Part shown: one piece after another, positions 11,248-13,719 of the stretch | Layout: each line of letters starts with the position of its first letter | Position numbering within the stretch: the stretch's first letter is position 1 | NCBI GenBank assembly: GCA_030041355.1 | Contig: JASHNZ010000019.1 | Coordinates: forward strand, 68,042-92,041 | From: Nitrososphaerales archaeon | GTDB taxonomy: Archaea > Thermoproteota > Nitrososphaeria > Nitrososphaerales > CADDZS01 | Reading direction: 5' to 3' | DNA length: 24,000 nt | Notes under the pieces: model-generated | Databases searched by the model: none | What the model was told of the DNA's origin: nothing | What the model saw: only the letters and a program-made list of their open reading frames with translations | Program-made: the position numbers and the translations under genes

Positions 11248-12492
11248 CTAAGCGATCTTGTATCTAAGCAAAGCGGCAATACCTCCGACAGAATTGAGTC
11301 TCTCTTTCTCTTGCGAAGATATCACCTCGACTTTGGCATCTGTGGTCGAAGCAGCGTCTTCCAAGACATCTATGACGTCTCTATCTTCTACCTCGAATTC
11401 TAGGCCGTTACATTTTTCACAAGGGATCAAAAGTTCCTGTTGTGTAGTTTCCACCTCCTTTTCCTCATGGACTAGTCGCGTTCTTGAGGTGTCGCACTTT
11501 TTGCATGTCAAGACAATTTCAATCAAGCCAGTATTATCTGCGACGAGAACGGTATCTGCGACTCCATTTCTCACAGCATCTAGCACTTTATGCAAACCTG
11601 AAACTACCAAGCCATCTTTCCTCGCCGTGTCTACCTCTAGACGTTGCATCAGCTTCTTATCCTCTGAGGAATGAATATTTTTCAGAACGTGAGCTGATTT
11701 CTCAAAAGCTTCTCTCACTCCTTCCTTGCCAGAAAGTGCTGTATCCACTTGAGAAAGAAGCATGTTCTTGAGCTCGTAACGCAGGAAATCTTCTTTTAGG
11801 AAATCCTCTTTGGTGAATCCTGGTCCGCCAACAATCAATCCATTAACTTTCTCTTTTGTGATAAAAGCTTCAGTTGCATGATCTGCAACCCTGTGAAAAT
11901 AATAAGTGAGCTCCATGTCTCGTTCTCGCTCATATCTCCTTTGACTCCAGCCGCCCTTGTCAGTCTTGCCAGAAATACCAGAGGTGATATGATCAACCAT
12001 ATCGAGTCTTTCACCGTTCAGAATTCCAAACCCAGCCGTATCTGCATCCATCGCGATTATGCCGACAACCCTGTCTTCTCGGAGCATGGTTCTGAGGGGC
12101 TCCAAATTGAATTGATCGTCGACTCCGAAAATAAAGTGAGTAATGGGCTCAGGGGGAATTACCTCATGAGTATCCACGCGCTTTGCTCCTGAATTAGGAG
12201 CAGCAAATATCGCGAGCCCATTATCTGGAATTTCATTTCGCGTCTTGAGATGATGGATTATTTCTGAAAACTCCTCTCGGACTTCTTGTCTCGTGGCTTG
12301 AGATTTAATTTCTGGATAGTCTAACTGCTCTTTGAGGAAGAGATCTGTGTCCTCAATTGATTTCTCCCTCGGTATGTAGACCGACACGAGATCCTTTGCA
12401 GTTGCTTCTTTGCTTGACAAAGATGCTATGAGCTTTCTCATCTTGTACTTCTTGACAGAATCAGTCGACGCCACTTGGTCCACATAGGACAT
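11248..12492 (-). CDS. peptide chain release factor aRF1 family protein with an atypical GGW in place of the GGQ motif
   Basis: It is collinear with aRF1/eRF1 over all three domains. The matching blocks are LVSVYIP, EIKSQATR (NIKS position), NGLAIF, FGVDDQFNLEPL (YxCxxxF position), GKTDKGGWSQRRYERERD (GGQSxRRF position), GLIVGGPGFTKEDF, and a C-domain CxxC...CxxC mini-domain, ending in GGIAALLRY. Confidence 0.9.
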   Translation of the reverse strand: MSYVDQVASTDSVKKYKMRKLIASLSSKEATAKDLVSVYIPREKSIEDTDLFLKEQLDYPEIKSQATRQEVREEFSEIIHHLKTRNEIPDNGLAIFAAPNSGAKRVDTHEVIPPEPITHFIFGVDDQFNLEPLRTMLREDRVVGIIAMDADTAGFGILNGERLDMVDHITSGISGKTDKGGWSQRRYERERDMELTYYFHRVADHATEAFITKEKVNGLIVGGPGFTKEDFLKEDFLRYELKNMLLSQVDTALSGKEGVREAFEKSAHVLKNIHSSEDKKLMQRLEVDTARKDGLVVSGLHKVLDAVRNGVADTVLVADNTGLIEIVLTCKKCDTSRTRLVHEEKEVETTQQELLIPCEKCNGLEFEVEDRDVIDVLEDAASTTDAKVEVISSQEKERLNSVGGIAALLRYKIA

Positions 12493-13266: not shown

Positions 13267-13719
13267 CTAGTTCGACCTTTCTCTTGTTTTGCGAGACCTC
13301 CTCTCCTGCATCTCGCGGATAGTCTTTCGCATGTGGCACTCACGGCAAAGAGACTGGCAGTTGTCAACATCAAATTCGCGCCCGCCAAGCGCGAGGGGTA
13401 TTATGTGATCGACCTGTCTAGCTCTGCGTCCGCACTTAATGCAAGTCCACCTGTCACGCCGGAGTGCTCTGTAGCGAATTTGTCTCCAAGTGACCACGAA
13501 GTAACTGAACCTTCTATTGAAACTTCTCCTGCATCTTGAATCGCAAAAGATCTTGCGTTTGTCCTGCAACTGTGTGCCGCAGAATCCGCACGTTCTGTTT
13601 ACATGCGCTAATTGCTTGAATCTCGCGTAACCCTTGAGCTTTTCCGTGTCAATTACGAAACGTCTTCTTACTTCAAGGAATTGTTCGTTAGTTTGTAAAG
13701 ACTCGAGAAACCAGTTCAA
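13267..13719 (-). CDS. HNH endonuclease with an N-terminal zinc-ribbon-like Cys cluster
   Basis: The HNH core is WTCIKCGRRARQVDHIIPLALGGREFDVDNCQSLCRECHMRKT, with a preceding CGFCG...FCDSRCRRSF cluster. There is no in-frame ATG before the catalytic core, and the track start is a TTG. Confidence 0.8.
   Translation of the reverse strand: MNWFLESLQTNEQFLEVRRRFVIDTEKLKGYARFKQLAHVNRTCGFCGTQLQDKRKIFCDSRCRRSFNRRFSYFVVTWRQIRYRALRRDRWTCIKCGRRARQVDHIIPLALGGREFDVDNCQSLCRECHMRKTIREMQERRSRKTRERSN

What the first reader, a model, noticed from the sequence alone, without database searches (positions are those of the whole stretch)
11248..12492. Full-length aRF1 homologue with the catalytic GGQ replaced by GGW
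The 414-aa product aligns with class-I release factor aRF1/eRF1 across all three domains, but the peptidyl-tRNA hydrolysis motif reads K-G-G-W-S-Q-R-R-Y-E-R (G180 G181 W182). I re-read the minus-strand codons ggc ggc tgg directly (complement of 11947-11955). Crenarchaeal aRF1, from memory, has GGQSQRR at this position, so the alignment is gap-free and the change is Gln to Trp. TGG is at least two substitutions from CAG and three from CAA, so a single base-call error cannot explain it.

The stop-codon-recognition elements also diverge. NIKS is EIKS (residues 61-64). YxCxxxF is FGVDDQF (residues 122-128), although crenarchaeal factors also vary in this second element.

All three stop codons terminate well-supported genes in this window. 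TGA ends qor, hppA and dys. TAG ends the SDR, rpoK and the thermopsin fusion. TAA ends glcD, solA and the permease. The organism therefore needs an omnipotent, catalytically competent factor.

Either this is a non-hydrolysing aRF1 paralogue with a different role (ribosome rescue, stalling, regulated termination or readthrough), or a GGW factor is functional. The second would contradict the accepted invariance of GGQ.
Basis: partly seen in the sequence, partly recalled or inferred. Interest (0 to 1): 0.78.

Follow-up and report, generated by a model that had tools for sequence, protein, structure and literature searches.

The report
Second archaeal release factor lacking GGQ
This gene is a conserved extra copy of the archaeal translation release factor that has lost every stop-codon-reading motif and the "universal" catalytic glutamine but keeps the rest of its catalytic loop unchanged, so it probably does a different, still unknown job on the ribosome alongside a normal release factor.

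Summary
Window 11248-12492 (-) encodes a 414-aa full-length aRF1 homologue with G180-G181-W182 (ggc ggc tgg), EIKS in place of NIKS and FGVDDQF in place of YxCxxxF. The TGG codon is identical in three independent assemblies.

It is neither an error nor a pseudogene (dN/dS about 0.12). It belongs to a large, apparently undescribed aRF1 paralogue family in soil and peat Nitrososphaerota and Bathyarchaeota, with 138 loci among GTDB species genomes.

Family members sit beside a canonical NIKS/GGQ aRF1. One MAG (Maxine3) holds both a 79%-identical relative and a canonical factor. One Bathyarchaeota contig carries both genes. A canonical factor also occurs in the same sequencing run as the exact window protein.

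The family has lost the known decoding determinants (GTS, E55, NIKS, V71, Y and C of YxCxxxF). It keeps an invariant loop K-G-G-x-S-Q-R-R-Y-E-R-E-R. Only x, the "catalytic Gln" position, varies (Q/W/S/E/M/A), and it is among the fastest-changing sites. Across aRF1 diversity, loss of Gln at x almost always goes with Gln at x+2 (GGxSQ, the motif of VLRF1 factors).

Best reading: a stop-codon-independent A-site factor that probably still hydrolyses peptidyl-tRNA. That function is untested.

The parts
11248..12492 (-). Complete gene for a 414-aa aRF1 paralogue with three domains: N about residues 10-140, M 143-272, C 277-413.
   Evidence: ORF. TIGR03676 at 332 bits, full length. Pfam eRF1_2 and eRF1_3. 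phmmer to PDB aRF1/eRF1, E = 3e-45. AF2 model pLDDT 83; Foldseek top hit 4af1 aRF1, TM 0.70. dN/dS 0.11-0.13 against orthologues.
11947..11955 (-). Codons ggc ggc tgg = G180 G181 W182, the GGQ position reading GGW.
   Evidence: Read directly. Identical in L001-L003. Aligned to GGQ of solved aRF1/eRF1. This position takes 26 parsimony steps among 120 family members, rank 16 of 414.
11920..11958 (-). Loop and helix start K179-G-G-W-S-Q-R-R-Y-E-R-E-R191. It is invariant in the family except residue 182. It includes S183-Q184, giving a GGxSQ motif.
   Evidence: Column counts. Invariant columns of A1. Zero parsimony steps for G180, G181, S183, Q184, R185, R186 and R191. Association of x and x+2, odds ratio 22.7, p = 3e-9.
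12301..12312 (-). E61-I62-K63-S64 in place of NIKS.
   Evidence: Canonical N and I are 100% conserved in 38 canonical aRF1s but lost in the family. This loop is very variable in GTDB family members.
12109..12129 (-). F122-G-V124-D-D-Q-F128 in place of YxCxxxF. The family consensus is Y-E-V-D-D-H-F.
   Evidence: The canonical sister clade reads YRCDDHF.
11410..11505 (-). Four-Cys insertion in domain C (C330, C333, C358, C361), a putative zinc ribbon. It is shared with the canonical Nitrososphaerales factor.
   Evidence: The Cys columns are invariant in A1 and A3, except C333, which is invariant in A1 and 90% or more in A3. The zinc-ribbon assignment is inferred from the CxxC...CxxC pattern only.

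Best explanation
The gene encodes a second, divergent class-I release factor (an aRF1 paralogue) that co-exists with a canonical NIKS/GGQ aRF1.

Shown:
- It is intact, under purifying selection, and belongs to a large family in Nitrososphaerota and Bathyarchaeota.
- It keeps the three-domain tRNA-mimic architecture, the positions equivalent to the aEF1-alpha contact residues, and an invariant tip loop K-G-G-x-S-Q-R-R-Y-E-R-E-R.
- The residues that read stop codons (GTS Thr, E55, N and I of NIKS, V71, Y and C of YxCxxxF) are lost or variable.
- The 'catalytic Gln' position x changes freely (Q/W/S/E/M/A).

Inferred:
- aEF1-alpha-GTP delivers the protein to the A site of ribosomes without requiring a stop codon, for example stalled, non-stop or otherwise aberrant ribosomes. 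The Gly-Gly loop then swings into the peptidyl-transferase centre.
- I judge it most likely that the protein still releases the nascent chain. Catalysis would rest on the Gly-Gly backbone geometry and the main-chain NH of residue 182. The invariant Gln184 (a GGxSQ loop, as in VLRF1-type factors) would supply the amide side chain that Gln182 no longer provides.
- On this reading Trp182 is one tolerated occupant of a position whose side chain has become dispensable. It is not an inactivating lesion.

Confidence is about 0.9 for 'conserved paralogue with a non-canonical role' and about 0.45 for the hydrolytic, codon-independent mechanism.
For: Real and conserved:
- Identical sequence in three assemblies.
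- 120 close homologues, mean column identity 75%.
- 138 loci among GTDB species genomes.
- dN/dS 0.11-0.13.

Paralogy:
- P0004 and the canonical P0280 lie in one MAG and one SRA run. The two contigs have matching GC (43.9% and 44.4%).
- Canonical P0275 occurs in the same run as the window protein.
- L077 carries a family gene and a TASNIKS aRF1 on one contig. The full-length canonical Bathyarchaeota factor reads TASNIKS / YRCDSRF / GGQSARRYERL.

Loss of decoding:
- Canonical columns conserved at 85% or more are retained in the family at 12/24 in domain N, 15/19 in M and 8/11 in C.
- Of the 12 N-domain columns lost, nine lie in the known decoding elements (GTS loop, E55, the NIKS loop, V71, Y and C of YxCxxxF).
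- The NIKS loop is highly variable across GTDB members.

Loop retained:
- Zero substitutions at G180, G181, S183, Q184, R185 and R186, against 26 steps at position 182.
- Non-hydrolytic relatives lack such a loop (PMC2613156, PMC6514570).

Gln shift:
- Among 50%-identity cluster representatives, x not Q goes with Q at x+2 in 23 of 26 cases. With x = Q the figure is 27 of 107 (Fisher p = 3e-9).
- By my own reading of the NJ tree, loss of Gln at x arose in at least 8 separate clades.
- aVLRF1 and acVLRF1 carry GGxSQ (PMC6514570).

Catalysis without the Gln side chain is chemically plausible:
- The two Gly are indispensable, while the Gln side chain has a packing role (PMC5799190).
- The main-chain amide of Gln is the key group (PMC3467058).

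aEF1-alpha interface:
- D149 and D250 are invariant and position 230 is D/E.
Against: - There are no biochemical or expression data.
- Trp is bulky and might block the water pocket instead. Gln substitutions in canonical factors are reported as non-functional in vivo (from memory; cited in PMC6514570 refs 13-14).
- In the AF2 model the helix starts at residue 182. Residues i and i+2 need not point the same way, so the Gln184 take-over is not structurally demonstrated.
- The x / x+2 association is not corrected for phylogeny and has three exceptions: P0142 GGWSAN, P0150 GGESAR, P0211 GGSSAR.
- No conserved operon partner points to rescue.
- x is not neutral. Only about 6 residue types occur, and Ser or Gln is held by synonymous codons within lineages. 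This is unexplained.
- A canonical factor in the window's own genome is inferred, not seen.
Confidence: 0.5

Rival explanations
1. Non-hydrolytic A-site and PTC occupant. The paralogue binds ribosomes (with aEF1-alpha and possibly ABCE1) to split, park or hibernate them, or to compete with the canonical factor. It would work like Pelota/Dom34 or the bacterial aeRF1-like hibernation factor Balon, without cleaving peptidyl-tRNA. Loss of Gln182 would reflect loss of catalysis.
For: - The decoding motifs are lost, as in Pelota and Balon.
- The catalytic position is unconstrained to Gln.
- Balon and Pelota structures are recovered as more distant fold matches.
- Weak NCBIfam hits to ribosome hibernation factor families.
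- Universal stress protein genes lie next to one member.
Against: - Known non-hydrolytic relatives have a degenerate or absent GGQ loop (PMC2613156, PMC6514570). Here Gly-Gly and 10 flanking residues are invariant across the family.
- Gln184 is invariant and correlates with loss of Gln182.
- The hibernation-factor HMM scores are far below their cut-offs: 36.9 against 320, and 18.2 against 480.
- 41% of the 120 closest family members (49 of 120) still have Gln at x, interleaved with non-Gln relatives.
Confidence: 0.3
2. Specialised codon-dependent release factor. The altered N domain would read a restricted or different signal, such as one stop codon, a stop in a particular context, or a sense codon. 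Known eRF1/aRF1 duplicates in ciliates and in pyrrolysine-using methanogens are a partial precedent.
For: - The N domain fold and many N-domain residues are conserved within the family, for example K63 and S64 at 90% or more in close members, and D125-D126-H127-F128.
- The Gly-Gly loop is retained.
Against: - The NIKS-equivalent loop is not conserved across the wider family. Examples are DSAVMKS, DKQMRES and NWVSSDS. A specific codon reader would be expected to keep it.
- All three stop codons are used normally in the window.
Confidence: 0.12
3. It is the organism's only release factor, and GGW is a fully functional replacement for GGQ in ordinary termination.
For: - No second aRF1 lies in the 24-kb window.
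- The gene passes the aRF1 equivalog threshold.
- NIKS-bearing aRF1s with GGW/GGM/GGF exist elsewhere.
Against: - A canonical aRF1 is found in the MAG of a 79% relative, in the same sample as the window protein, and on the same contig as a Bathyarchaeota family member.
- The decoding motifs are lost.
Confidence: 0.04
4. Sequencing or assembly error, or a decaying pseudogene.
For: None found.
Against: - Identical in three assemblies.
- W is conserved through a clade at 59-81% identity.
- The reading frame is intact and dN/dS is about 0.12.
Confidence: 0.01

Closest known systems
Canonical archaeal/eukaryotic class-I release factor aRF1/eRF1 (TIGR03676; PDB 4af1, 3agk, 1dt9)
   Same: - Full-length three-domain homology, above the equivalog cut-off.
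- Same fold (TM 0.70 to 4af1).
- Gly-Gly at the loop tip, the basic helix after it, and the aEF1-alpha-facing Asp residues.
- The 4-Cys insertion is shared with the Nitrososphaerales factor.
   Different: - GGW instead of GGQ, and variable in the family.
- NIKS, the GTS Thr, E55, and the Y and C of YxCxxxF are lost.
- It is a paralogue present in addition to a canonical factor.
- It evolves faster: 79% identity between two relatives against 88.6% for their canonical factors.
VLRF1 clade (Vms1/ANKZF1-like; aVLRF1 and acVLRF1), which carries a GGxSQ motif (PMC6514570)
   Same: The loop motif is G-G-x-S-Q with a variable x and a conserved Gln two residues later. The Pfam acVLRF1 profile matches residues 143-234 at 48 bits.
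   Different: The window protein has the classical aRF1 N and C domains. It sits phylogenetically inside aRF1, as sister to the Nitrososphaerales factor. The acVLRF1 hit lies under a stronger eRF1_2 hit. The NCBIfam acVLRF1 score is 38.6 against a cut-off of 125.
Pelota/Dom34 (aPelota with aEF1-alpha and ABCE1 ribosome rescue)
   Same: An aRF1 paralogue that does not read stop codons. It is likely delivered by aEF1-alpha. Pelota appears as a distant fold and sequence match.
   Different: Pelota has an Sm-like N domain and no GGQ loop (PMC2613156). This protein keeps the eRF1-type N domain and an invariant Gly-Gly loop. TIGR00111 scores 60 against a cut-off of 177.65.
Bacterial codon-independent or diverged release-factor paralogues (ArfB/ICT1, PrfH)
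   Same: The concept is the same: an extra class-I-RF-derived factor that keeps the catalytic loop, has lost normal stop-codon reading, and rescues abnormal ribosomes (PMC9304027 and PMC12829566 abstracts).
   Different: The fold is unrelated (bacterial RF type). Those factors keep GGQ.
Balon / baeRF1 ribosome hibernation factors (PDB 8rd8, 8v9j)
   Same: aeRF1-superfamily fold with NIKS and GGQ absent. They bind the A site with an EF-Tu-type GTPase (bioRxiv 10.1101/2022.11.24.517861).
   Different: They are bacterial. Most baeRF-1 families lack the conserved glutamine and show little constraint on the catalytic loop (PMC6514570); that Balon itself lacks a Gly-Gly loop is from memory. HMM scores are far below the family cut-offs.
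Second aRF1 copies of Methanosarcina and eRF1-2 of ciliates
   Same: Duplicated class-I factors within one genome (ciliates: PMC2613156; Methanosarcina: from memory).
   Different: The ciliate paralogues keep GGQ and YxCxxxF, and only their NIKS varies.

Membership tests
aRF1/eRF1 (TIGR03676 equivalog; canonical omnipotent class-I release factor) | Full-length match to the family profile above the curated cut-off, with three domains eRF1_1, eRF1_2 and eRF1_3. | tested here: met
   332.2 bits against 234.7, model positions 1-403 of 403. Pfam eRF1_2 and eRF1_3. PF03463 is precomputed for P0001. Foldseek top hit 4af1, TM 0.70.
aRF1/eRF1 (TIGR03676 equivalog; canonical omnipotent class-I release factor) | GGQ tripeptide at the tip of domain M. 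| tested here: not met
   GGW. In the family x is Q 49, W 30, S 19, E 16, M 5, A 1.
aRF1/eRF1 (TIGR03676 equivalog; canonical omnipotent class-I release factor) | NIK(S) motif, reported as universal outside ciliates (PMC2613156). | tested here: not met
   EIKS. Asn is 100% conserved in 38 canonical factors and absent from the family.
aRF1/eRF1 (TIGR03676 equivalog; canonical omnipotent class-I release factor) | YxCxxxF motif, the GTS-loop Thr, and the Glu equivalent to human E55. | tested here: not met
   FGVDDQF, with Y replaced by F and C by V. K33 replaces the Thr and Q56 replaces the Glu.
aRF1/eRF1 (TIGR03676 equivalog; canonical omnipotent class-I release factor) | Orthology: it is the genome's termination factor. 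| tested here: not met
   It co-occurs with a canonical factor in a relative's MAG, in the same sample, and on one Bathyarchaeota contig. This is indirect for the window's own genome.
aRF1/eRF1 (TIGR03676 equivalog; canonical omnipotent class-I release factor) | Stop-codon-dependent peptidyl-tRNA hydrolysis. | not testable with these tools
   Requires an in-vitro release assay.
Pelota/Dom34 (TIGR00111) | Profile score above the cut-off, an Sm-like N domain, and no GGQ loop. | tested here: not met
   60 bits against 177.65, matching only residues 143-413. The N domain is eRF1_1 type. The Gly-Gly loop is present and invariant.
VLRF1 clade (acVLRF1 PF18859 / NF041024) | GGxSQ catalytic-loop motif. 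| tested here: met
   G180-G181-W182-S183-Q184. S and Q are invariant in 120 of 120 members. The motif definition comes from PMC6514570.
VLRF1 clade (acVLRF1 PF18859 / NF041024) | Family-level profile membership and VLRF1 domain architecture. | tested here: not met
   NF041024 scores 38.6 against 125. The Pfam hit (48 bits) lies under a stronger eRF1_2 hit. The tree places the protein inside aRF1.
Balon / Rv2629 / MSMEG_1130 ribosome hibernation factors | Profile score above the curated cut-off. | tested here: not met
   36.9 against 320, and 18.2 against 480.

The most novel reading that the evidence does not exclude
GGxSQ is a second, naturally evolved catalytic-loop solution within aRF1-type factors. 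The functional glutamine would have moved two residues downstream, freeing the 'universal' GGQ glutamine to become Trp, Ser, Glu, Met, Ala or Phe.

On this reading the window protein is a hydrolytically active, stop-codon-independent release or rescue factor delivered by aEF1-alpha, an activity not known in archaea. The NIKS-bearing GGW/GGM/GGF-SQ aRF1s, many of them interrupted by an intein exactly at x|S, would be the primary termination factors of their hosts. If so, GGQ is not universal even among bona fide release factors.
Probability: 0.3. Interest if true: 0.85.

Novelty: new variant of a known kind. Interest (0 to 1): 0.7.

Why it matters
GGQ is described as universally conserved in class-I release factors of all domains (PMC2613156, PMC5799190). 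Here a whole family of full-length aRF1 homologues is under purifying selection and keeps Gly-Gly and everything around it, yet lets the glutamine vary.

Non-Gln variants also turn up in otherwise canonical NIKS-bearing aRF1s, nearly always with Gln two residues later. This amounts to a natural mutagenesis experiment on the long-debated role of the GGQ glutamine side chain against its backbone.

It also points to an unrecognised ribosome-associated function (rescue, quality control or parking) in abundant soil and peat archaea, alongside Pelota. The predictions are directly testable with W182Q, Q184A and GG-to-AA variants.

There is a practical consequence too. Automated annotation names these genes 'peptide chain release factor aRF-1', which is probably wrong functionally and could affect single-copy marker counts.

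Tried and rejected
1. **TAG-intermediate idea.** Q, E, S and W are all one step from TAG, so I asked whether some alleles carry an in-frame stop at x. None of 80 GTDB loci has a stop there. Met and Ala are not TAG neighbours, and Ser uses TCA, TCG, TCC, TCT and AGT. Dropped.

2. **Third homology search.** I used an alignment (A2) of 'GKHRQGGQSAKRF' factors, hoping to find the canonical Bathyarchaeota aRF1. Uninformative.

3. **Matching 'longest_contig' lengths.** The aim was to show a second aRF1 on the closed 2.46-Mb contig of P0019. No match was found. The metagenome scan with the L077 canonical fragment did not return that contig among its best 80.

4. **First AF2 run.** With only close homologues it gave a poor model (pLDDT 62.5). 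I repeated it with a deeper alignment (pLDDT 83.2).

5. **Gene neighbourhood.** There is no conserved same-strand partner. The best neighbour (an IF-2B family gene) occurs in 16 of 83 loci and on the opposite strand. The window's own neighbours are not conserved elsewhere.

6. **Taxon names for the NIKS-bearing GGW/GGM/GGF clade.** Cluster look-ups returned no organism names.

7. **Escape from an intein homing endonuclease as the driver of variation at x.** I considered this but did not adopt it, because synonymous changes would give the same immunity without altering the protein.

8. **Literature.** No paper in the searchable library mentions GGW together with release factor and GGQ, an aRF1 paralogue in Bathyarchaeia or Nitrososphaeria, or an intein in aRF1. 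Shaw & Green 2007 and Seit-Nebi 2001 could not be read.
Full report
**1.
Window 11248..12492 (minus strand) is an uninterrupted 414-codon ORF with an ATG start and a TAG stop. The codons at 11955-11947 read ggc ggc tgg, within K-G-G-W-S-Q-R-R-Y-E-R.

The product matches the NCBIfam aRF1/eRF1 equivalog model over its whole length, at 332 bits against a cut-off of 234.7. It also matches Pfam eRF1 domains 2 and 3.

It aligns without gaps around the motif to solved aRF1/eRF1 structures. W182 therefore sits on the Gln of GGQ in Halobacterium 4af1, Aeropyrum 3agk (GGQSQRRYER) and human eRF1.

All three stop codons end ORFs in the window.

The identical gene, including TGG, is present in three independently assembled sequencing runs. 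An AlphaFold model built with a 58-sequence alignment (pLDDT 83, pTM 0.67) finds aRF1 4af1 (TM 0.70) and ribosome-bound eRF1 as best matches. Balon and Pelota score well below these.

**2. It belongs to a large conserved family.**
The 120 best database homologues (53-100% identity) carry the source labels 'archaeon', Nitrososphaerota and Bathyarchaeia. All share an invariant K-G-G-x-S-Q-R-R-Y-E-R-E-R and a Y-E-V-D-D-H-F-type motif, and none has NIKS.

Position x reads Q 49, W 30, S 19, E 16, M 5, A 1. On a neighbour-joining tree these states are interleaved. The window's own subclade (P0001-P0017) is W throughout, except for one GGS member.

Position 182 needs 26 parsimony steps, rank 16 of 414. 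G180, G181, S183, Q184, R185 and R186 need none.

Four closely related Bathyarchaeota genes (dS about 0.15) carry GAG, CAG, TCG and CAG at this codon. Within the window's clade dN/dS is 0.11-0.13.

A scan of one genome per GTDB species found 138 loci. The best 80 comprise:
- three of the window's clade, all TGG: 'archaeon Maxine3'; the closed 2.25-Mb chromosome OY969807.1 of an uncultured Nitrososphaerota archaeon; and 'Nitrososphaerales JOPF014';
- about 75 peat and soil Bathyarchaeota MAGs, mostly GGS or GGQ.

Five MAGs hold two family copies each.

**3. It is a paralogue, not the organism's termination factor.**
The nearest non-family relatives are the canonical Nitrososphaerales aRF1s, which read TASNIKS, YRCDDHF and GGQSARRYER. 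Three lines of evidence place a canonical factor beside the family.
- MAG GCA_029850555.1 (Maxine3) encodes both P0004 (GGW, 79% identical to the window protein; contig JARCRS010000134.1) and canonical P0280 (contig JARCRS010000031.1, flanked by a Y-family polymerase gene and a class-I tRNA synthetase gene). Both also occur in Logan run SRR22572386, and the two contigs have the same GC content.
- Canonical P0275, in the same gene order, occurs in run SRR21679852. That is the same run as the exact window protein, and its GC is 46.1% against 46.6% for the window.
- In Bathyarchaeota, contig CAWJIN010000022.1 carries a family gene and, 7.6 kb away, the start of a TASNIKS aRF1. Full-length copies of that factor read TASNIKS / YRCDSRF / GGQSARRYERL and are 85-100% conserved over 80 metagenome contigs.

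Paralogues from the two phyla are more alike (54%) than their canonical factors are (42.6%). Both paralogues are closer to the Nitrososphaerales canonical factor (41-46%) than to the Bathyarchaeota one (36-38%). I infer that the family arose from a Nitrososphaeria-type aRF1 and later spread laterally. The tree is only neighbour-joining, so this is tentative.

**4. What is kept and what is lost.**
I compared 38 canonical aRF1s with 40 family members. Columns conserved at 85% or more in canonical factors are retained in the family at 12 of 24 in domain N, 15 of 19 in M and 8 of 11 in C.

Nine of the 12 N-domain columns lost lie in the known decoding elements. These are the GTS-loop Thr (window K33), the Glu equivalent to human E55 (Q56), N61 and I62 of NIKS, T67, R68, V71, and the Tyr (F122) and Cys (V124) of YxCxxxF. 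The other three are the start Met, L35 and G98.

In more distant family members the NIKS-equivalent loop is essentially free. In domain M the prominent loss is Q182.

Positions equivalent to the A. pernix aRF1 residues that contact aEF1-alpha are kept: D149 and D250 are invariant, and position 230 is Asp or Glu. The four-Cys insertion in domain C is kept too.

**5. A wider pattern: GGx with Gln at x+2.**
A profile-free search of 1.84 billion cluster representatives showed that non-Gln residues at x also occur in otherwise canonical, NIKS- and YxCxxxF-bearing aRF1s. Examples are P0161 GGWSQRRF, P0204, P0230 and P0242 GGWSQA, P0257 GGWSQK, P0153 GGFSQQ, P0237 GGASQH and P0240 GGMSQH.

A whole clade carries an intein inserted exactly between x and Ser, with GGW, GGM or GGF before the intein Cys and ...HN|SQ after it. 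Pfam Intein_splicing plus LAGLIDADG hits confirm the intein in P0143, a member of that clade.

Among representatives, x not Q goes with Gln at x+2 in 23 of 26 cases. With x = Q the figure is 27 of 107 (odds ratio 22.7, p = 3e-9). This is not corrected for phylogeny, and by my own reading of the tree it involves at least eight separate clades.

Burroughs and Aravind describe GGxSQ as the loop motif of the aVLRF1 and acVLRF1 release-factor families (PMC6514570).

**6. Mechanism.**
Published work says that the two glycines are indispensable because of their backbone angles. It assigns the Gln side chain a packing and water-positioning role, and identifies its main-chain NH as the key catalytic group (PMC5799190; PMC3467058).

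Relatives that do not hydrolyse (Pelota/Dom34 and most baeRF-1) have degenerate loops (PMC2613156, PMC6514570). A family that freezes Gly-Gly and ten neighbouring residues, frees only x, and fixes Gln at x+2 is therefore more easily read as a factor that still works at the peptidyl-transferase centre.

Because its decoding elements are gone, it should not depend on a stop codon. I therefore favour a codon-independent release or rescue factor delivered by aEF1-alpha, at about 0.45.

The main rival is a non-hydrolytic A-site occupant of the Pelota or Balon type (about 0.3). A codon-specialised factor comes next (about 0.12).

Several things are not explained:
- why only about six residue types occur at x;
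- why Ser or Gln is held by synonymous codons within lineages while close relatives differ;
- why Trp recurs in independent clades.

No conserved operon partner gives a functional hint.

**7. Novelty.**
None of the literature searches found a description of this family, of GGW in a release factor, or of aRF1 inteins. Atkinson et al. state that NIK and GGQ are universal in a/eRF1.

I class the finding as a new variant of a known kind: a distinct aRF1 paralogue subfamily with a GGxSQ loop.

Its interpretation is partly supported: the gene is a paralogue, but 'non-hydrolysing' is not established and is not the reading I favour.

Noticed in passing
Proteins P0121, P0124, P0126, P0143, P0152, P0156, P0163, P0169, P0172, P0198, P0201, P0206, P0215, P0241 (not in the window): Many archaeal aRF1 genes (540-1450 aa) carry an intein inserted exactly between the GGQ-position residue and the following Ser (for example GGQ|CVSS... 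and ...HN|SQARY). Of these, P0143, P0121 and P0126 were scanned and carry LAGLIDADG and HTH domains. A second insertion site lies near residue 120, just before YxCxxxF (P0122, P0125, P0127), and P0126 has both. No paper in the library mentions an aRF1 intein.
   Followed up: partly
Proteins P0142, P0153, P0161, P0204, P0230, P0237, P0240, P0242, P0257, and the intein clade P0143 to P0241: Otherwise canonical aRF1s, with NIKS and YxCxxxF intact, carry GGW, GGM, GGF or GGA instead of GGQ, nearly always followed by S-Q. Their taxonomy and copy number per genome could not be established. If they are sole copies, GGQ is not universal in true release factors.
   Followed up: partly
L039+L046, L033+L062, L047+L063, L051+L088, L049+L076: Five Bathyarchaeota MAGs each hold two copies of the paralogue family, all GGS. 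With the canonical factor, these genomes probably encode three aRF1-like proteins.
   Followed up: no
window 13267-13719 (-): A 150-aa ORF with an HNH endonuclease domain lies about 0.8 kb upstream of the aRF1 paralogue. It is present in the same genome's other assemblies but not next to family members elsewhere.
   Followed up: partly
L034, L035, L072, L080, L090; protein P0023: Family genes sit on contigs deposited under bacterial or unrelated names (Candidatus Acidoferrum, Sulfotelmatobacter, Limnocylindrales, Nanoarchaeia, Zixibacteria). These are most likely mis-binned Bathyarchaeota contigs.
   Followed up: no
L010-L013, L018, L019, L103, L104: The canonical Nitrososphaerales aRF1 lies in a conserved gene order: Y-family DNA polymerase (IMS), aRF1, class-I aminoacyl-tRNA synthetase, radical-SAM/UPF0004. 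In some loci the aRF1 stop abuts the synthetase start. The paralogue has no such conserved context.
   Followed up: partly
window residues 178 and 182 (11947-11961, minus strand): Within the family, Trp at 182 goes with an acidic residue at 178 (D or E in 21 of 30 W sequences), while Gln goes with Val or Gly. This may simply reflect shared ancestry.
   Followed up: no
(P0001/P0004 against P0275/P0280): Between the same pair of related organisms the paralogue is 79% identical while the canonical factor is 88.6% identical. Across phyla, however, the paralogues (54%) are more alike than the canonical factors (42.6%). This suggests lateral transfer of the paralogue between Nitrososphaerota and Bathyarchaeota.
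   Followed up: partly
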